A stretch of 20,413 nt of DNA from Candidatus Woesearchaeota archaeon (GCA_964623495.1 CAZUTV010000001.1:229936-250348), one strand, 5' to 3'; counted from the first letter of the stretch, positions 8,569-20,413 are shown. Notes: generated by a model from the letters alone, not told the origin. Translations and numbers: made by a program.

Positions 8569-8883
8569 TTATCTTCTAATTGCTCTCATGAATAGGAAAA
8601 CAAGGAGCACTATCAGTAAAGCTGCAGAGACAAAGCCGAGCAAAATCGAGAGTATCAAAAATAAATTGTTAGTAATGCTCCCTGTTGTTGAAATGCTGTA
8701 AAAGATTACAGATAATACAAAAAGTATGATAAAGGTGATGAGGTTCTTTGTTACAAGATCAACCCTTCTCTGATCACCAGATTCTTGCCTATAATTGAAG
8801 CTTGGTGCAGGTCTTCTAGCATTAGTTGTTCTAGAAAATCTTCTTGCCACCTTTCTTTTTTTTATCGCTCTTTTTTTAGCCAT
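8569..8883 (-). CDS. small membrane protein with a basic N-terminal tail and two TM helices
   Basis: 104-aa ORF. Sequence MAKKRAIKKRKVARRFSRTTNARR..., then hydrophobic LITFIILFVLSVIFYSI and LFLILSILLGFVSAALLIVLLVFLF. Confidence 0.5.
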   Translation of the reverse strand: MAKKRAIKKRKVARRFSRTTNARRPAPSFNYRQESGDQRRVDLVTKNLITFIILFVLSVIFYSISTTGSITNNLFLILSILLGFVSAALLIVLLVFLFMRAIRR

Positions 8884-8978: not shown

Positions 8979-9173
8979 CTAAGTCCCCCAGTCCTGGGAG
9001 ACTACACTTCCGGTAATTCCCTGCAAATTAACATAAACTTTATCCACCCACTTCAAAAACAAATCTCCAAATTTCCCAAGATTCTCAGATTTATGCATTG
9101 CAAGATTATTATTGCTTATAATTAAAAGAGAAAAAAGTATAAAAAGCATCATTAAAAAAATCAGAAATCTCAT
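8979..9173 (-). CDS. membrane-anchored mini-protein, DWG-tail family (paralog of 9170..9481)
   Basis: 64-aa ORF with an N-terminal TM helix. Its start overlaps the upstream stop (ATGA, 4 nt). The C-terminal segment GDLFLKWVDKVYVNLQGITGSVVSQDWGT aligns without gaps to the tail of the upstream ORF. Confidence 0.5.
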   Translation of the reverse strand: MRFLIFLMMLFILFSLLIISNNNLAMHKSENLGKFGDLFLKWVDKVYVNLQGITGSVVSQDWGT

Positions 9174-9481
9174 CCTCCAGAAGTGCTATTGTTGTCTCCG
9201 CCCCAATCCATTTTAACAGCATAGCTAGTGACTGCCTTGAAATTAGAGAATGCAGATCCAAGCCAGGACATGTATATCTTGCCTGCATTCAAAACCCCGC
9301 TAGCAGTCTTTAAGTCTACCTCATGTCCCCTAATAGATAAAGTAAAGGTAAATGCAACAAAAATCAAGAGTATTATTAAAAAATGTGAAAAGAACTTGTG
9401 CCTTGCTCTTCTAAAACCCAACATCATCCAGATTAATAAAAGAAAAATTCCCACGATTAGGATTATCCCCGAAATAGCCAT
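9170..9481 (-). CDS. membrane protein (two TM helices), DWG-tail family
   Basis: 103-aa ORF with two hydrophobic helices and the tail GKIYMSWLGSAFSNFKAVTSYAVKMDWGG. On the minus strand, TTTTTATA ends 22 nt before the ATG. Confidence 0.55.
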   Translation of the reverse strand: MAISGIILIVGIFLLLIWMMLGFRRARHKFFSHFLIILLIFVAFTFTLSIRGHEVDLKTASGVLNAGKIYMSWLGSAFSNFKAVTSYAVKMDWGGDNNSTSGG

Positions 9482-13391: not shown

Positions 13392-13994
13392 ATGAAATTA
13401 GAGGTTGAAACAAAAGTAAAGGTGAATAATGTTCCTGAACTAAGAAATAAAATAAAGAAGATAGCAATCCATGAAAAAACAGAATCAAGGGGTGATGATT
13501 ATTTTGCCCTTAAAGGCGAGCGTTATCCACGAAAAGCTTTCAGAATCAGATATGACGGAAAAAAATTTGTAGTCAATTTCAAGAAACATTTAAAAAATCT
13601 TTACAGTGATGGAATTGTTGTGAAAGAAGAGTATGAATTCAGACTAACAGATATAGAACACATCGGAAATTTTCTTGCTTTGCTTGAAGATCTTGGATTT
13701 AAGCCATGGGTGAAAAAGAGAAAACACACAGAAGCTTATCTTTGGAAAAAAGACAAAAGAGTAAACATAGAACTTAATCATGTAGAGCACATAGGTACTT
13801 ACATGGAAATCGAATTCTTAGCAACAAAAAGCCAGGTCCCTGAAGCAAAAAAGAAAATTCTTGAGGTTTTAAAAGAGCTTGAAATTAAAAAATCAGACAT
13901 AGACAATGTAGGATACACTAAAAGACTTTATGAAAAGGGAATCAAAGACAGGAAATATTTTATAACAAAAAAATTCAAGAAGAAAAGTGGATAA
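13392..13994 (+). CDS. CYTH-domain protein (triphosphate tunnel metalloenzyme / CyaB-ThTPase superfamily), paralog 1
   Basis: N-terminal ExExK signature (KLEVETKVKV). Basic residues on alternating strands (RKAFRIRYDGKKFVVNFKK). C-terminal IELNHVEHIGTYMEIEF, equivalent to the h.hD.V..LG.FhEIE motif. An SD-like GAGGA lies 6 nt before the ATG. Confidence 0.75.
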   Translation: MKLEVETKVKVNNVPELRNKIKKIAIHEKTESRGDDYFALKGERYPRKAFRIRYDGKKFVVNFKKHLKNLYSDGIVVKEEYEFRLTDIEHIGNFLALLEDLGFKPWVKKRKHTEAYLWKKDKRVNIELNHVEHIGTYMEIEFLATKSQVPEAKKKILEVLKELEIKKSDIDNVGYTKRLYEKGIKDRKYFITKKFKKKSG

Positions 13995-16880: not shown

Positions 16881-16888
16881 TTTATAAG
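16881..16888 (+). promoter_or_regulatory. TATA-like TTTATAAG, ends 41 nt before ATG 16929 (leadered class with SD GGAGG at 16918-16922)
   Basis: Same 41-nt spacing and 6-nt SD spacer as at 13344-13351/13392. Confidence 0.45.
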
Positions 16889-16928
16889 CCATTTATCATA
16901 TCATAGATTTAGGCAAAGGAGGAAATAC

Positions 16929-17888
16929 ATGGTTAGCGAAATCTGGACAGAGAAGTACAGACCCAGTAAATTTTCAGAGCTTGTAGGTCAAGAGGACATA
17001 GTCAAAAGAATCGAGTCTTTGACAAATTCATTAAATATACCTCATTTATTGTTCGCAGGACCAGCAGGAACAGGCAAATCAACTCTTGCACTAATTATTG
17101 TAAGAGCTCTCTACGGAGATAATTGGAAGGAAAACTACCTTGAACTTAATGCAAGTGATGAAAGGGGTATAAATGTAGTTAGAGAAAAAGTAAAGACTTT
17201 TGCAAGAACAAAATCTCTTGGAAATGTCCCTTTTAAGGTAATCTTTTTAGATGAAGCAGATGCCTTAACTCCAGAAGCTCAGCAAGCCCTAAGACGTACA
17301 ATGGAAAACTACTCTACCACTTGTAGGTTCATACTTTCCTGCAACTACTCCAGCAAAATTATTGATCCAATCCAATCCAGATGTGCAATCTTCCGTTTCA
17401 AACTTCTAGAAAAGAGGGACATAGACAAAGTAATAGAAAAAATAACAGTAGGGGAAAACCTTACAATACAACAAGCTGCAAAAGAGATTATCTATGAAGG
17501 AAGCGAGGGAGACTGCAGAAAATCAATTAACATCCTTCAGTCTACGGCCTCAATATCGCCAAATATAACGACAGATTTAGTATCAACAATAATCTCAAAT
17601 GCAAAGCCAAAAGACATTAGGGTTGTCTTAGATTATGCTTTATCTGGAGATTTCCAGAAATCAAGAGAAAAACTACTAGACGTCATGTTAAAAGAAAGTA
17701 TTTCTGGCCAAGACGTAATAAAAGCAATTCAAAAAGAAGTCTGGAATCTTCCAATAGAACCAGAAATAAAAGTAAAACTAACAGAAAAAACTGGAGAAGT
17801 AGAATTCAGAATAGTTGAGGGAAGTGACCCATTTATACAACTACAGTCCCTATTAGCAAGTTTTGTGCTTGCTGGTTTGGCCAAGTAA
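16929..17888 (+). CDS. rfcS: replication factor C small subunit
   Basis: WTEKYRP..F.E.VGQE, Walker A GPAGTGKST, DEAD (Walker B), SRC motif (QSRCAIFRF), 319 aa. GGAGG lies 6 nt before the ATG. Confidence 0.95.
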   Translation: MVSEIWTEKYRPSKFSELVGQEDIVKRIESLTNSLNIPHLLFAGPAGTGKSTLALIIVRALYGDNWKENYLELNASDERGINVVREKVKTFARTKSLGNVPFKVIFLDEADALTPEAQQALRRTMENYSTTCRFILSCNYSSKIIDPIQSRCAIFRFKLLEKRDIDKVIEKITVGENLTIQQAAKEIIYEGSEGDCRKSINILQSTASISPNITTDLVSTIISNAKPKDIRVVLDYALSGDFQKSREKLLDVMLKESISGQDVIKAIQKEVWNLPIEPEIKVKLTEKTGEVEFRIVEGSDPFIQLQSLLASFVLAGLAK

Positions 17889-17897
17889 ATTACCAAA

Positions 17898-18092
17898 ATG
17901 AGCTTGGATGGTTTTGAAGAAAGCAAGATAAAAACACATTTATACAACGAATTTTATGAGGCCAATAAAGACTTATTTAGAAAAAATCGCCAAGAGTTCA
18001 TGCGCCAGCAAAGAGTTTATGTTGAAAAAGGATTCATGGATATTAAATATAATTTAAAAAAAGATGGAGAGCAACATAGAAGTAGAGATTAG
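17898..18092 (+). CDS. hypothetical 64-aa protein between rfcS and CYTH paralog 2
   Basis: ORF starts 9 nt after the rfcS stop and overlaps the next ORF by 29 nt. Charged, helical-looking. No family recognised; it could be non-coding. Confidence 0.35.
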   Translation: MSLDGFEESKIKTHLYNEFYEANKDLFRKNRQEFMRQQRVYVEKGFMDIKYNLKKDGEQHRSRD

Positions 18093-18624
18093 GAGTTTCA
18101 TAACAGAAGACCAGTATAAGACCCTAGTAAAATTCTTTGAGGAAAACTCAATAAAAGTAAAAGATGATTTTCAAGAAACACACTACTTTAACTGCAAAGA
18201 AGACTTAAGAATTCAGAAAAATAGTTCTGGTGCAAAAGTTTGGATGAAAAAAGGAAAAATCCACGACGATTGGAGGGAAGAAATAGAGATAAAAATCCCA
18301 AGAGACGATTTTGAAAAGATGAAATCAATATTCAATGGGTTGGGCATGGAAACAGAGATAAAATGGCTCAGAGATAGAAAACAATTTGACTGGAACGGAA
18401 TTAAAGTTTGTTTAGATTTCACGCAAGGCTATGGGCATATAATAGAACTTGAAAAAATAACTTCTCCTGAAGAAAAAGAAAGGGTACTAACAGAACTGCA
18501 AGAAAAATTACAGGAGTTAGACATAAAACTAAGCCCAAAAGAAGAATTCGATAAAAAATTTAGCCATTATAAAGAAAACTGGAGAGAATTAACAGAAGAT
18601 GATAAAAGATCAAAATTGGGTTGA
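18064..18624 (+). CDS. CYTH-domain protein, paralog 2
   Basis: N-terminal IEVEIRSF (ExExK/R), LRIQK, KVWMKKGK, WREEIEIKI, and a C-terminal KVCLDFTQGYGHIIELE motif. Overlaps the rfcL start by 26 nt. Confidence 0.7.
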   Translation: MESNIEVEIRSFITEDQYKTLVKFFEENSIKVKDDFQETHYFNCKEDLRIQKNSSGAKVWMKKGKIHDDWREEIEIKIPRDDFEKMKSIFNGLGMETEIKWLRDRKQFDWNGIKVCLDFTQGYGHIIELEKITSPEEKERVLTELQEKLQELDIKLSPKEEFDKKFSHYKENWRELTEDDKRSKLG

Positions 18625-19831
18625 AAAATACAGGCCAAATTACTTCGCTGAAATCAAAAGTCAAGAGCTTGCAGTAAGAAAAGTAAAGGATTTTATCGAG
18701 AGTTTTTTCAATAAAGGGCAGGTGGAATCAAAATATATGGCCCCTTTACTAAAGAAAGACTCACCAAAACGAGCGCTTATTCTTCACGGGCCTCCTGGAA
18801 CAGGAAAAACAGCACTTGCCCATGTTGCCGCAAAAGAAACAAGCTCAGAGATATTTGAATTAAATGCCTCTGATTTAAGGGACAAGGAAAAACTAAAAGA
18901 AATATTAAAACCAGCAATAGAACAAAGATCATTAATGAGTGAAAATAAAATAATCCTTATAGATGAAGTTGATGGAATTTCAAAAAATGATTTTGGCGGA
19001 TTAAAGGAACTTCTTGTTCTCATTGAATCCTCTGCAGTTCCTATAATTATGACAGCAAACGATATCTGGGATAGAAAATTTGCAGAATTACGGCAGAAAT
19101 GTGAAGTCATTAAACTAAAAGAAATAGACTACAAAACAATAAAAGAAATCTTAATAACCATACTAAAAAAAGAAAAGCTATTCATCAATGAAGAGATACT
19201 AACTAAAATAGCAATAAAAGCCAAAGGAGATGTAAGAGCAGCAATAAATGACCTTCAAGCAATATCAAAGCTAAAAGACCCTTCTTCAATATTGTTCGAC
19301 GAAAGAAACAAGGAAGTTGATATTTTTAATGCACTAAGACTTATTTTCAAAGGAAAGCCGACAAAAGAAGTTATCGAAGTATTTGAATCAATAAACATGT
19401 CTCTTGATGAAATAATGCTGTGGATTGAAGAAAATATTCCTGCAGAATACCAGGGAGAAGAGCTGGCCAAAGCAATACACTCATTAAGCAACGCTGATTT
19501 ATTCAAAGGAAGAATATACAAACAGCAGTACTGGAGATTTCTAGTTTACGAGAATATCTTCCTAAGCTACGGCATTTCTGCTTCAAAAAAAGACATTAAA
19601 ACAGGATTCACATCTTATAAGAAGCCAGAAAGAATCCTCAAAATCTGGCTTCACAACCAAAAAATAGAAAAAAAGAAATCTATCGCCCAAAAATATGCTC
19701 GTCTGGTTCATGTTGGTGAAAAACGTGCTTTGCGGGAATTTCCTTTGTTAAAAGAAATAATCAAAAGCAATCCAAAAATCCAAAAAGAGCTAAAACTCAA
19801 TGAAGACGAAATTACATATTTGGAGAAGTAA
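18599..19831 (+). CDS. rfcL: replication factor C large subunit (short, 410 aa)
   Basis: WVEKYRP..F.EI..QE, Walker A LHGPPGTGKT, Walker B ILIDEVDG, GD(V/I)R(A)AINDLQ sensor region. Confidence 0.85.
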   Translation: MIKDQNWVEKYRPNYFAEIKSQELAVRKVKDFIESFFNKGQVESKYMAPLLKKDSPKRALILHGPPGTGKTALAHVAAKETSSEIFELNASDLRDKEKLKEILKPAIEQRSLMSENKIILIDEVDGISKNDFGGLKELLVLIESSAVPIIMTANDIWDRKFAELRQKCEVIKLKEIDYKTIKEILITILKKEKLFINEEILTKIAIKAKGDVRAAINDLQAISKLKDPSSILFDERNKEVDIFNALRLIFKGKPTKEVIEVFESINMSLDEIMLWIEENIPAEYQGEELAKAIHSLSNADLFKGRIYKQQYWRFLVYENIFLSYGISASKKDIKTGFTSYKKPERILKIWLHNQKIEKKKSIAQKYARLVHVGEKRALREFPLLKEIIKSNPKIQKELKLNEDEITYLEK

Positions 19832-20347
19832 ATGGGGCATTTAAATGTTGAAATAAAAGCAAGATGTCAAAACCAAAATTCTATTCGAGAAATTCTAAAA
19901 TCAAAACAGGCAGATTTTAAAGGAATTGACCACCAAATTGACACCTATTTTAAAGTTAGTAAAGGAAGATTAAAATTAAGAGAAGGAAATATTGAAAATT
20001 CACTAATATTTTATGAAAGAGAAAATAAAGAAGGACCAAAACAATCTAATGTTATTTTATTCAAAACAGCTAAAGATTCGTCTCTAAAAGAAATTCTAAC
20101 AAAACTATTTGAAATACTAATAATTGTTGATAAAAAAAGGGAAATTTACTTCATTAGCAATGTAAAATTTCATATAGATGAAGTAAAAGGATTAGGAGAT
20201 TTTATAGAGATTGAAGCTATTGATGAACATGGGAATATTGGAAAAGAAAAATTACAAGAGCAATGTCAAGAGTATATTAGATTATTCCAAATAAATAATG
20301 AAGATTTAATCTCTCAATCTTATAGTGACTTGTTGTTAAAGAACTGA
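19832..20347 (+). CDS. CYTH-domain protein, class IV adenylyl cyclase (CyaB)-like, paralog 3
   Basis: Its ATG immediately follows the rfcL TAA. Contains NVEIKAR (ExExK), QIDTYF, GRLKLRE, KKREIY and FHIDEVKGLGDFIEIEA, close to the canonical CyaB/CYTH motif set. Confidence 0.8.
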   Translation: MGHLNVEIKARCQNQNSIREILKSKQADFKGIDHQIDTYFKVSKGRLKLREGNIENSLIFYERENKEGPKQSNVILFKTAKDSSLKEILTKLFEILIIVDKKREIYFISNVKFHIDEVKGLGDFIEIEAIDEHGNIGKEKLQEQCQEYIRLFQINNEDLISQSYSDLLLKN

Positions 20348-20413
20348 TTAATCCTGATCTTATATTCTAAAGAACAATTAACACTGAGCAGCTGTATTTG
20401 AATTTGCTGCAGC

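What the first reader, a model, noticed from the sequence alone, without database searches (positions are those of the whole stretch)
16929..20347. RFC clamp-loader operon interleaved with two CYTH (triphosphate tunnel metalloenzyme) genes
The gene order is rfcS, a 64-aa ORF, CYTH, rfcL, CYTH, all on one strand. The junctions indicate translational coupling. The 64-aa ORF overlaps CYTH-2 by 29 nt. CYTH-2 overlaps rfcL by 26 nt. The ATG of CYTH-3 directly follows the rfcL stop codon. Both CYTH proteins keep the N-terminal ExExK signature (IEVEIR, NVEIKAR) and the C-terminal G..(I/F)IE(I/L)E motif, so they look catalytically competent. They are strongly diverged from each other, so this is not a recent duplication. 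CYTH enzymes act on triphosphorylated substrates such as PPPi, thiamine-PPP, ATP to cAMP, and RNA 5' triphosphates. I know of no described functional link to the ATP-dependent clamp loader. The tight embedding suggests a shared function or regulation, which is inference.
Basis: partly seen in the sequence, partly recalled or inferred. Interest (0 to 1): 0.65.

Follow-up and report, generated by a model that had tools for sequence, protein, structure and literature searches.

The report
Clamp-loader operon carrying swappable nucleotide-hydrolase genes
In this small DPANN archaeon the two clamp-loader genes form one tight operon with two diverged CYTH triphosphatase genes, but relatives put other nucleotide-cleaning enzymes, or nothing, in the same two positions, so the link is probably co-expression with replication and not a specific RFC-CYTH partnership.

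Summary
rfcS, a 64-aa ORF, CYTH2, rfcL and CYTH3 lie on one strand with 29-nt and 26-nt overlaps and a 0-nt junction.

Profiles confirm RfcS, RfcL and both CYTH domains. CYTH2 models as a triphosphate-tunnel fold closest to the archaeal enzymes 1YEM and SaTTM.

CYTH2 sits between rfcS and rfcL in 26 of 80 species-level genomes that carry a CYTH2 ortholog, always overlapping or abutting rfcL. Among 67 closely related RFC operons only 5 hold CYTH2. The rest are empty or hold small ORFs, a deoxyribosyltransferase-like domain (DUF7768), NUDIX, or an unknown 112-aa family. MazG and Maf also occur in the slot, in operons found through CYTH2.

CYTH2 is fused to NUDIX or to the deoxyribosyltransferase-like domain in 10 of the 26 operons.

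CYTH3 directly follows rfcL only in a few relatives. A minor strain in the window's own sample replaces it with 862 unknown bases.

Neither CYTH protein has the adenylate-cyclase motifs. CYTH2 reads ExExR and CYTH3 reads NxExK.

Best reading: these are replication-co-expressed triphosphatases of nucleotide-pool hygiene sitting in two variable passenger positions of the RFC operon. A specific RFC-CYTH functional link is not supported. I found no prior description. Interest is moderate.

The parts
16881..16887 (+). TATA-box-like element TTTATAA about 47 nt upstream of the rfcS ATG; putative archaeal promoter of the operon (inferred)
   Evidence: The same TTATAA-type element lies 25-30 nt upstream of several other genes in the window. 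No transcript data are available.
16917..16922 (+). Shine-Dalgarno-like AGGAGG 6 nt upstream of the rfcS start
   Evidence: Read from the sequence.
16929..17888 (+). rfcS, replication factor C small subunit (319 aa). Walker A is GPAGTGKS and an SRC motif is present.
   Evidence: NCBIfam NF001679 scores 445.9 bits against a cutoff of 303. Pfam Rep_fac_C and AAA match.
17898..18092 (+). orf64, a small ORF in the first passenger position. It overlaps CYTH2 by 29 nt. It is weakly conserved and of unknown function.
   Evidence: No family hit. Weak positional homologs lie between rfcS and rfcL in L084 (34 bits) and L163-L166 (14-16 bits). There they are in frame with rfcL or are broken by a stop codon. 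It is absent from the closest CYTH2-bearing relative, L162.
18064..18624 (+). CYTH2, a triphosphate tunnel metalloenzyme-type protein (186 aa). It reads ExExR (E6, E8, R10), R49-x-Q51 and E128-x-E130, and carries a C-terminal two-helix extension.
   Evidence: Pfam PF01928 E=2e-11. The AlphaFold model has pLDDT 92.5. Foldseek top hits are 1YEM, SaTTM 7NS* and PH1819. Family alignment is A1.
18599..19831 (+). rfcL, replication factor C large subunit (410 aa). Its start lies 26 nt inside CYTH2.
   Evidence: NCBIfam NF003229 scores 337.6 bits against a cutoff of 280. A GGAGAG motif lies 12-17 nt upstream of the ATG.
19832..20347 (+). CYTH3, a second and strongly diverged CYTH/TTM-type protein (171 aa). 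It reads NxExK (N5, E7, K9), K48-x-R50 and E126-x-E128, and occupies the passenger position after rfcL.
   Evidence: Pfam PF01928 E=1.7e-15. PDB hits are 2DC4 (1.7e-9), 1YEM and YpAC-IV. Family alignment is A4.
19830..20358 (.). Segment that a minor co-occurring strain replaces with 862 different bases. It corresponds to CYTH3 plus or minus a few bases.
   Evidence: In read laying on run X1, a 936-nt contig at depth 9.3 joins 19829 to 20359. The CYTH3 path has depth 24.6.
13392..13994 (+). CYTH1, a third CYTH paralog 3 kb upstream. Its stop overlaps the GTG start of acetyl-CoA synthetase. It is not part of the RFC operon but is relevant context.
   Evidence: NCBIfam TIGR00318 scores 66.3 bits against a cutoff of 57.95. 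PDB hits are 2EEN (3e-7), 1YEM and 2DC4. The CYTH1-ACS pairing is also seen in L156 and L093.

Best explanation
Layout. rfcS-orf64-CYTH2-rfcL-CYTH3 is one polycistronic, translationally coupled operon of a Woese-/Pacearchaeota-type DPANN archaeon. Its constant part is the clamp loader (RfcS and RfcL). Two positions act as passenger positions whose content differs between relatives, and even between strains: the gap between rfcS and rfcL, and the site directly after rfcL.

Passengers. Across the clade the recognisable passengers are mostly enzymes that hydrolyse nucleotides or their phosphate chains. They are CYTH2, CYTH3, MutT-like NUDIX, a nucleoside-2-deoxyribosyltransferase-like domain (DUF7768), MazG and Maf. 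CYTH2 is often fused to NUDIX or to the DUF7768 domain.

Proposed function. CYTH2 and CYTH3 are most likely divalent-metal-dependent triphosphohydrolases of the triphosphate-tunnel type. They would cleave the terminal phosphate of inorganic triphosphate or of (d)NTP-like substrates. They would work in nucleotide-pool hygiene or salvage, and riding in the RFC operon ties their expression to replication. These organisms largely take nucleotides from outside.

What they are not. They are not adenylate cyclases. Nothing indicates that they are clamp-loader subunits.

Shown versus inferred. Shown: gene order, overlaps, family membership, fold, conservation pattern, fusions, and the strain-level replacement. 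Inferred: co-transcription, enzyme activity, substrate and physiological role.
For: Operon and coupling:
- Same strand, overlaps of 29 and 26 nt and a 0-nt junction.
- No T5 run or terminator-like site falls between the genes.
- SD-like motifs precede rfcS, rfcL and CYTH3.
- The CYTH2-to-rfcL junction is -26 to +1 nt in all 23 loci examined.
- In 62 of 78 loci the rfcS 3' end carries a purine-rich SD-like motif. In 38 of 78 loci the next ORF starts 0-2 nt after the rfcS stop, whatever that ORF is.

Conservation:
- 26 of 80 GTDB species genomes that have a CYTH2 ortholog place it between rfcS and rfcL.
- CYTH2 and RfcL pairwise distances correlate (Mantel r=0.59, 0 of 2000 permutations reach it).

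Nucleotide-hydrolase context (families identified):
- NUDIX PF00293 is fused to CYTH2 in L002, L005, L006 and L025, and is a separate ORF in L003.
- The DUF7768 domain is fused to CYTH2 in L008, L013, L017, L023, L063 and L081, and stands alone in 8 metagenome operons. The Foldseek match to a phage N-deoxyribosyltransferase has E=1.8e-5.
- MazG PF03819 occurs in L008 and L023.
- Maf occurs in L004 (TIGR00172, 128 bits against a cutoff of 117).
- Fusion or adjacency of such a hydrolase to CYTH2 is seen in 12 of 26 RFC-linked loci but in only 4 of 54 other loci.
- In RFC-centred loci these families give 29 hits in 27.9 kb of slot against 3 hits in 330 kb of flanks.
- CYTH3 orthologs elsewhere also pair with NUDIX (L167, L168). 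L162 has a NUDIX gene where the window has CYTH3.

Enzyme type:
- The TTM fold is closest to archaeal cluster-3 proteins, including SaTTM. SaTTM is a PPPi/NTP gamma-phosphatase and not a cyclase (PMC8233210).
- ExE is kept and the HF motif is absent, which fits the TTM criteria of that paper.

Lifestyle:
- Woesearchaeota have minimal capacity to make nucleotides (PMC8421398).
Against: - The association is patchy. Only 5 of 67 related RFC operons hold CYTH2 and 1 of 67 has CYTH3 after rfcL. Twelve are empty, and 22 hold only 111-400 nt with no family assigned, where small unknown ORFs were seen.
- Some passengers are not nucleotide hydrolases or are unknown: a PCC domain, a nucleotidyltransferase, c14, c30 and zinc-ribbon-like small ORFs.
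- Gene order is fluid in this clade generally. There are 28 distinct upstream neighbours among 46 loci and 36 distinct downstream neighbours among 66 loci, so variability of the slot is not special in itself.
- The slot-versus-flank enrichment uses query families that were first picked from slots, which is an ascertainment bias.
- Canonical residues are changed: K to R at position 10 and R to Q at position 51 in CYTH2, and E to N at position 5 in CYTH3. Activity and substrate may therefore differ from known TTMs.
- No transcript data exist and no biochemistry exists for either subfamily.
Confidence: 0.5

Rival explanations
1. Neutral hitchhiking. In these compact and rearrangement-prone genomes, the rfcS-rfcL junction and the rfcL 3' end are simply permissive insertion points. 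Small genes that land there are expressed and tolerated, and the CYTH genes have no functional relation to replication.
For: - Slot content is very variable and often empty.
- Unrelated or unknown passengers occur there.
- The flanks of the operon are equally variable.
- 54 of 80 CYTH2 orthologs lie elsewhere.
- CYTH3 orthologs trail other large operons, namely RNA polymerase and SMC.
- A strain-level replacement of CYTH3 exists.
Against: - The recognisable passengers are predominantly one functional class, nucleotide and phosphoanhydride hydrolases, and they are repeatedly fused to one another.
- These families are about 100-fold denser in the slot than in 330 kb of flanks (with the ascertainment caveat).
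- CYTH2 has stayed in the slot across a mean RfcL divergence of about 38%, and its distances track RfcL distances.
- The junctions are always tightly coupled.
Confidence: 0.28
2. Direct partnership. CYTH2 and/or CYTH3 bind or regulate the clamp loader. Examples would be removing an inhibitory triphosphate compound at the replisome, or acting on the 5'-triphosphate of RNA primers.
For: Stoichiometric-looking translational coupling inside the operon. CYTH relatives include RNA 5'-triphosphatases, which is established knowledge of the Cet1 family.
Against: - Most closely related RFC operons lack any CYTH gene.
- CYTH2 is interchangeable with NUDIX or DUF7768 in sister operons.
- CYTH2 orthologs mostly lie away from RFC.
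- CYTH3 can be replaced within one population.
- RfcS and RfcL show no compensating differences that I could see between operons with and without CYTH, but this was not tested formally.
Confidence: 0.07
3. Conflict cassette. The variable positions hold defence or counter-defence genes, such as nucleotide depletion or destruction of virus-modified nucleotides, in the way defence islands do.
For: - NUDIX, MazG, N-deoxyribosyltransferase-like and CYTH proteins are common in phage genomes (BFVD and PHROG hits).
- Content turns over at strain level.
- The NUDIX passenger hits the candidate defence family PDC-S07.
Against: - No PADLOC or PHROG family matches CYTH2, CYTH3, orf64, DUF7768, MazG, Maf or c14 at the thresholds used.
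- No mobile-element genes and no flanking repeats were found.
- The cassettes sit inside an essential housekeeping operon.
Confidence: 0.08
4. Signalling. The CYTH proteins are class IV adenylate cyclases that make cAMP, as many database names suggest.
For: Sources name homologs 'predicted adenylyl cyclase CyaB' or 'class IV adenylate cyclase'. TIGR00318 scores 54.0 and 54.5 bits.
Against: - Both scores are below the curated cutoff of 57.95.
- The HFxxxxExExK motif is absent. The second Glu of ExE is kept rather than replaced by Ala. The gate-keeper basic residue is kept (R49 in CYTH2, K48 in CYTH3). These are the criteria of PMC8233210.
- The closest characterised archaeal relative, SaTTM, makes no cyclic nucleotide.
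Confidence: 0.03

Closest known systems
SaTTM (Saci_0718) and the archaeal 'cluster 3' CYTH proteins (P. furiosus 1YEM; P. horikoshii PH1819/2EEN and PH1012/2DC4)
   Same: They share the Pfam family, the single-domain size and the eight-stranded tunnel fold (Foldseek E=7.5e-10 to 2e-8, TM 0.67-0.77). They also share the ExE metal site and the first Arg of the xRxR motif. SaTTM is a Mg-dependent PPPi and NTP gamma-phosphatase (PMC8233210), and this is the activity I infer for CYTH2 and CYTH3.
   Different: Identity is only 20-28%. CYTH2 has ExExR where the family has ExExK, and an invariant Gln where SaTTM has its second Arg (R58). It also has a conserved C-terminal helical extension (KEEFxxKYxxYKxNW). 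CYTH3 has an invariant Asn in place of the first Glu. Neither subfamily has been assayed. Their operon context (RFC) and their fusions (NUDIX, DUF7768) are not reported for cluster 3.
CyaB-type class IV adenylate cyclase (Y. pestis 2FJT/3N0Y)
   Same: CYTH superfamily; weak sequence matches (E about 1e-7 for CYTH3); database names.
   Different: The HF motif and the ExA signature are lacking, and the basic gate-keeper residue is kept. The proteins therefore fail the defining features of AC-IV.
Canonical archaeal RFC operon (rfcS next to rfcL)
   Same: RfcS and RfcL are ordinary equivalogs. In 12 of 67 related operons the two genes are separated by 110 nt or less. From my own knowledge, this adjacency is also typical of many cultivated archaea.
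   Different: Here, and in many relatives, one to four extra genes are spliced between the two subunit genes with start/stop coupling, and sometimes one more follows rfcL. I found no description of this.
'House-cleaning' nucleotide hydrolases (MutT/NUDIX, MazG, Maf, DNPH1/N-deoxyribosyltransferase-like)
   Same: These are the families that share the slot with CYTH2 or are fused to it. By association they define the likely functional class.
   Different: CYTH enzymes are not a recognised member of this functional group. The association seen here is genomic only.
Plant TTM1/TTM2 (uridine-kinase-like P-loop domain fused to CYTH)
   Same: A precedent for a CYTH domain fused to a nucleotide-metabolism domain. 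The two-domain architecture, with a phosphoribulokinase-family domain (PF00485), is described in PMC8233210.
   Different: The partner domains differ (NUDIX or DUF7768 here). The plant proteins lack ExExK/ExE and act on pyrophosphate.

Membership tests
CYTH / triphosphate tunnel metalloenzyme superfamily (PF01928) | Profile match above the curated threshold | tested here: met
   CYTH2 scores 44.5 bits and CYTH3 57.7 bits against a cutoff of 23.2.
CYTH / triphosphate tunnel metalloenzyme superfamily (PF01928) | N-terminal ExExK motif | tested here: inconclusive
   CYTH2 reads E6-x-E8-x-R10, a conservative K to R change that is invariant in 27 sequences. CYTH3 reads N5-x-E7-x-K9, with the first Glu replaced by Asn, invariant in 29 sequences. 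Strictly, neither protein is ExExK.
CYTH / triphosphate tunnel metalloenzyme superfamily (PF01928) | Eight-stranded beta-barrel tunnel fold | tested here: met
   The CYTH2 model has pLDDT 92.5 and nine predicted strands plus helices. The top 29 Foldseek hits are all CYTH/TTM structures.
CYTH / triphosphate tunnel metalloenzyme superfamily (PF01928) | C-terminal ExE metal-binding motif on strand beta-8 | tested here: met
   E128/E130 in CYTH2 align to SaTTM E135/E137. CYTH3 keeps E126/E128.
CYTH / triphosphate tunnel metalloenzyme superfamily (PF01928) | Metal-dependent hydrolysis of a triphosphate substrate | not testable with these tools
   This needs an enzyme assay.
Class IV adenylate cyclase (CyaB, AC-IV) | HFxxxxExExK extension, Ala in place of the second Glu of ExE, and a small residue in place of the central Arg (criteria of PMC8233210) | tested here: not met
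   There is no HF four residues before the motif. ExE is kept. R49 (CYTH2) and K48 (CYTH3) are kept. TIGR00318 scores 54.0 and 54.5 bits, below the cutoff of 57.95.
Thiamine triphosphatase | Aromatic W/Y in the W/YxRxR motif | tested here: not met
   The equivalent position is D47 in CYTH2 (DLRIQ) and R46 in CYTH3 (RLKLR).
Archaeal replication factor C | RfcS and RfcL equivalog profiles above cutoff, with Walker A present | tested here: met
   NF001679 scores 445.9 against 303 and NF003229 scores 337.6 against 280. GPAGTGKS and GPPGTGKT are seen in the translations.
Single operon (co-transcription) | One transcript spanning all five ORFs | not testable with these tools
   No RNA runs hold the locus. 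The indirect support is the overlaps, the lack of terminator-like sites between the genes and the conserved coupling.
Integron-like or mobile gene cassette | Recombination sites or repeats flanking the cassettes; an integrase or transposase nearby | tested here: not met
   There are no convincing flanking repeats. The only candidate is a 15-mer at both the rfcS and rfcL ends that can be explained by the coding sequence. No recombinase was recognised among the annotated neighbours.
Known anti-phage defence systems (PADLOC) | Match to a defence-system protein model | tested here: not met
   CYTH2, orf64, DUF7768, MazG, Maf, c14 and CYTH1 give no hit. CYTH3 gives only a spurious Cas5b match at E=0.0069. 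NUDIX hits the candidate family PDC-S07.

The most novel reading that the evidence does not exclude
The rfcS-rfcL operon of Woese-/Pacearchaeota is a pre-wired docking site. The SD-like motif built into the rfcS 3' end, followed by TAA-A-ATG, would serve to express whatever gene follows. Exchangeable nucleotide-sanitation cassettes are swapped into this site by recombination, even between co-existing strains. This would tune the replisome's dNTP supply to a scavenged, host- or virus-derived nucleotide pool. Within this system CYTH2 (ExExR, Gln51) would be a new (d)NTP-directed triphosphohydrolase class that works in series with its fused NUDIX or deoxyribosyltransferase-like partners.
Probability: 0.2. 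Interest if true: 0.75.

Novelty: new variant of a known kind. Interest (0 to 1): 0.5.

Why it matters
CYTH proteins are ancient and widespread, yet their physiological role is largely unknown (PMC8233210). This locus gives two large DPANN-centred CYTH subfamilies a concrete and testable context.

They travel with NUDIX, MazG, Maf and deoxyribosyltransferase-like enzymes, and are fused to some of them, inside the operon of the replication clamp loader. That points to nucleotide-pool hygiene or salvage tied to replication in organisms that import their nucleotides.

The locus also shows an essential two-subunit operon that tolerates frequent cassette exchange between its two genes, down to strain level. 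This is of interest for how reduced genomes organise accessory functions.

It corrects the database label 'adenylate cyclase' for these proteins.

Tried and rejected
1. Adenylate-cyclase reading. Rejected on the motif criteria and on NCBIfam scores below the cutoff.
2. Defence-island reading. PADLOC and PHROG scans gave nothing for the CYTH proteins.
3. Mobile-cassette signature. The repeat search found no flanking repeats.
4. Identifying the DUF7768-type N-terminal domain.
   - By sequence against PDB: no hit.
   - By Foldseek against PDB using the fusion model: the CYTH half dominated the list.
   - The BFVD search did resolve it as N-deoxyribosyltransferase-like.
5. The c14 family. No Pfam, NCBIfam, PDB or PHROG hit.
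6. orf64. No family hit. It was judged a weakly conserved positional small ORF and not a NUDIX remnant.
7. RNA evidence for co-transcription. No RNA runs exist.
8. Reading the 862-nt alternative to CYTH3.
9. Iyer & Aravind 2002 (PMC138802). The paper is not held.
10. Bacterial versus archaeal origin of the non-RFC CYTH2 loci that are labelled as CPR bacteria. The neighbouring genes were not decisive.

Full report
OBSERVATION.
- rfcS 16929-17888
- a 64-aa ORF 17898-18092
- CYTH2 18064-18624
- rfcL 18599-19831
- CYTH3 19832-20347

The overlaps are 29 nt and 26 nt, and the CYTH3 ATG follows the rfcL stop directly. RfcS and RfcL pass the NCBIfam equivalog cutoffs (445.9 against 303 and 337.6 against 280). 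Both CYTH ORFs pass the Pfam PF01928 cutoff. The two CYTH proteins are only about 20% identical, with profile-profile E=0.0013, so they are old paralogs. The rest of the window encodes ordinary archaeal housekeeping genes: PheRS alpha and beta, RNase P p30, acetyl-CoA synthetase and two tRNAs. G+C is about 35%. The homologs come from Woese-/Pacearchaeota-type DPANN archaea.

WHAT THE CYTH PROTEINS ARE. Both belong to large, well conserved families. At least 855 proteins match CYTH2, and at least 7989 match CYTH3 (the search scored only the 8000 best candidates).

CYTH2:
- The model is confident (pLDDT 92.5). Its best structural matches are the archaeal CYTH proteins 1YEM, SaTTM (7NS*), PH1819 and PH1012.
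- SaTTM is a Mg-dependent triphosphatase that prefers PPPi, also removes the gamma-phosphate of ATP and GTP, and makes no cyclic nucleotide (PMC8233210).
- That paper gives sequence criteria. True class IV cyclases have HFxxxxExExK, Ala instead of the second Glu of the beta-8 ExE, and a small residue instead of the central Arg.
- CYTH2 has no HF. It reads E6-x-E8-x-R10, keeps R49, has an invariant Q51 where SaTTM has R58, and keeps E128-x-E130.

CYTH3:
- It has no HF four residues upstream. It reads N5-x-E7-x-K9, with Asn invariant in 29 sequences, and keeps K48-x-R50 and E126-x-E128.

Both are therefore tunnel-type phosphohydrolase candidates and not cyclases. Each departs from the canonical ExExK in a family-wide way.

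IS THE LINKAGE CONSERVED? (CYTH2-CENTRED VIEW.) A scan of one genome per GTDB species with a CYTH2 alignment gave 80 loci.
- In 26 loci CYTH2 lies between rfcS and rfcL on the same strand. In 54 loci no RFC gene lies within 6 kb and the neighbours are diverse.
- Twenty of those 54 have record titles naming CPR or other bacteria. I could not resolve whether that is misbinning. Among the archaeal-titled loci the fraction is 26 of 60.
- Where CYTH2 directly precedes rfcL, the junction is between -26 and +1 nt in all 23 cases.
- CYTH2 and RfcL pairwise distances correlate (Mantel r=0.59, 0 of 2000 permutations reach it; RfcS against RfcL gives r=0.93). This indicates long residence in the slot with some exchange.

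RFC-CENTRED VIEW. A metagenome scan with an RfcL alignment returned 80 loci at 62-74% identity. Sixty-seven of them show both subunit genes. The gap between rfcS and rfcL ranges from 7 to 1460 nt. Its content is:
- 12 operons have 110 nt or less.
- 22 have 111-400 nt with no family assigned; small unknown ORFs were seen there.
- 12 carry a DUF7768-type domain.
- 7 carry an unknown 112-aa family (c14).
- 5 carry NUDIX.
- 5 carry CYTH2.
- Only 1 has CYTH3 directly after rfcL.

On an RfcL tree the CYTH2-bearing operons are scattered, and sister operons often differ in content. The window's own small clade shows four states:
- orf64+CYTH2 in the slot and CYTH3 after rfcL (the window)
- CYTH2 only, with a minus-strand NUDIX after rfcL (L162)
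- DUF7768 only (L083)
- an orf64-like element only, with CYTH3 after rfcL (L163-L166) or with a NUDIX-like ORF after rfcL (L084)

THE PASSENGERS.
- In CYTH2-bearing operons the slot also holds NUDIX, either fused N-terminally to CYTH2 (L002 with two NUDIX domains, L005, L006, L025) or as a separate ORF (L003).
- It holds a roughly 135-aa domain fused to CYTH2 (L008, L013, L017, L023, L063, L081).
- It holds MazG (L008, L023), Maf (L004), c14 and small ORFs.
- The 135-aa domain scores as DUF7768 in some homologs. In a model of a fusion protein (pLDDT 87.5) it matches phage and giant-virus N-deoxyribosyltransferases in BFVD (E=1.8e-5, TM 0.67). It has an invariant Glu in a GGxTxxE motif.
- The NUDIX passengers are most similar to MutT-type (d)NTP pyrophosphohydrolases but score below the cutoffs.
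- Hydrolase fusion or adjacency to CYTH2 occurs in 12 of 26 RFC-linked loci but in only 4 of 54 others.
- In the RFC-centred set these families give 29 hits in 27.9 kb of slot and 3 hits in 330 kb of flanks. The caveat is that the queries were first drawn from slots.
- Other passengers exist: a PCC domain, a nucleotidyltransferase and zinc-ribbon-like ORFs.

CYTH3 AND THE POSITION AFTER rfcL.
- Close CYTH3 relatives (77% identity) follow rfcL in L163-L166, where CYTH2 is absent.
- L100 has rfcL followed by CYTH3. L106 has CYTH2-CYTH3-rfcL, and L005 has a CYTH3-like gene directly after CYTH2 before its contig ends.
- Other CYTH3 orthologs sit next to NUDIX (L167, L168), after rpoA'' (L169-L171) or after SMC (L172).
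- In L162 the position after rfcL holds a minus-strand NUDIX gene, and the next gene (GILT-like, minus strand) is orthologous to the one that follows CYTH3 in the window.
- In the public run that holds the window at 31x depth, a minor contig (depth 9.3 against 24.6) joins 19829 to 20359 and carries 862 other bases in place of CYTH3. This is a strain-level replacement of exactly this gene. I could not read the replacement sequence.

orf64. It has no family match. Weak positional homologs lie between rfcS and rfcL in L084 and L163-L166. In L164 and L165 the homolog is in frame with rfcL. In L163, L166 and L084 it is interrupted by a stop codon. L162 lacks it. It is a weakly constrained small ORF or leader. 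CYTH2 appears to have been inserted between it and rfcL.

EXPRESSION SIGNALS.
- A TTTATAA element (16881) and AGGAGG (16917-16922) precede rfcS. GGAGAG precedes rfcL and GGAGAAG precedes CYTH3.
- No terminator-like hairpins occur in the operon, and T5 runs occur only inside ORFs.
- In 62 of 78 loci the last 18 nt of rfcS carry a purine-rich SD-like motif. In 38 of 78 loci the next ORF starts 0-2 nt after the rfcS stop (typically TAAAATG), whatever it encodes.
- Co-transcription is inferred. No RNA runs are available.

EXPLANATION. The best-supported reading is that the clamp-loader operon has two passenger positions that mostly collect nucleotide and phosphoanhydride hydrolases. CYTH2 and CYTH3 are two such passengers. 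They are probably tunnel-type triphosphohydrolases acting on PPPi or (d)NTP-like substrates in nucleotide-pool hygiene or salvage, and the operon ties their expression to replication. This fits organisms with minimal nucleotide biosynthesis (PMC8421398).

The main rival is neutral hitchhiking, because gene order around the operon is as fluid as inside it and many operons carry no passenger. A direct RFC-CYTH partnership is unlikely given the patchiness and interchangeability. A defence role has no support from PADLOC or PHROGs. The cyclase reading fails its defining features.

COMPARISON AND NOVELTY. The proteins are new, unassayed subfamilies of a known superfamily, closest to archaeal cluster-3 TTMs. 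I found no prior description of the operon architecture (accessory nucleotide hydrolases spliced between rfcS and rfcL, NUDIX-CYTH and DUF7768-CYTH fusions, strain-level exchange). I rate it a new variant of a known kind and of moderate interest.

CAVEATS.
- The sampling is biased. One set of loci was selected by CYTH2 and the other by RfcL similarity.
- ORF calling was mechanical.
- The tree is a quick neighbour-joining tree.
- The taxonomy of the non-RFC loci is uncertain.
- CYTH3 was not modelled.
- Activity, substrate and co-transcription are all inferred.

Noticed in passing
window 13392-13994 (+): A third CYTH paralog (CYTH1) whose stop overlaps the GTG start of acetyl-CoA synthetase (13987). 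Pfam misses it, but TIGR00318 scores 66.3 bits (above the cutoff) and PDB 2EEN matches at 3e-7. The CYTH1-ACS pairing recurs in L156 and L093. Three CYTH genes therefore lie within 7 kb.
   Followed up: partly
window 19830-20358; public run X1: A minor contig (936 nt, depth 9.3 against 24.6) replaces CYTH3 with 862 unknown bases between positions 19829 and 20359. This is a strain-level cassette replacement. The replacement sequence could not be read.
   Followed up: partly
rfcS 3' ends in L001-L172 (window 17871-17900): In 62 of 78 loci the last 18 nt of rfcS contain a purine-rich SD-like motif (for example GGAAAGGAG). In 38 of 78 loci the following ORF starts 0-2 nt after the stop (TAAAATG), regardless of which gene follows.
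   Followed up: partly
L002 4491-4826, L004 7129-7467, L013 2439-2780, L023 6521-6859, L107, L110, L124, L128 (alignment A6): c14 is a recurrent 112-aa passenger of the rfcS-rfcL slot (MGIQVEFNPDLALR...FLKKGQRNYW...EATHF). It has no Pfam, NCBIfam, PDB or PHROG match, and its function is unknown.
   Followed up: partly
L164 4493-4702, L163 2760-2966, L084 about 975-1200: orf64-like sequence upstream of rfcL. It is in frame with rfcL in L164 and L165, giving a 479-aa product. Near-identical strains (L163, L166) and L084 have it broken by an in-frame stop. It is either a decaying leader ORF or a variable N-terminal extension of RfcL.
   Followed up: partly
L029-L031, L035, L037, L044-L046, L050, L051, L054, L058, L068, L074, L075, L079: Twenty CYTH2 orthologs at 53-59% identity lie on contigs whose record titles name CPR or other bacteria. 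L075 has a Mur ligase nearby. Either the contigs are misbinned or the CYTH2 family is shared between DPANN archaea and CPR bacteria.
   Followed up: partly
window 17876-17890 and 19819-19833: A near-identical 15-mer (TTTGGnnAAGTAAAT) lies at the ends of both rfcS and rfcL, which are the two passenger boundaries. The shared Lys-stop coding probably explains it.
   Followed up: no
window 8569-8883 (-) and 9170-9481 (-): Short ORFs between two tRNA genes. The first has a partial E1-E2 ATPase match (E=9.2e-5, below the cutoff) and looks like a fragment of a P-type ATPase gene.
   Followed up: no
L169-L171 4001-4516; L172 4001-4540: CYTH3 orthologs sit as the last gene after rpoB-rpoA'-rpoA'' and after SMC. 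In these genomes CYTH3 tends to trail large operons for nucleic-acid enzymes.
   Followed up: no
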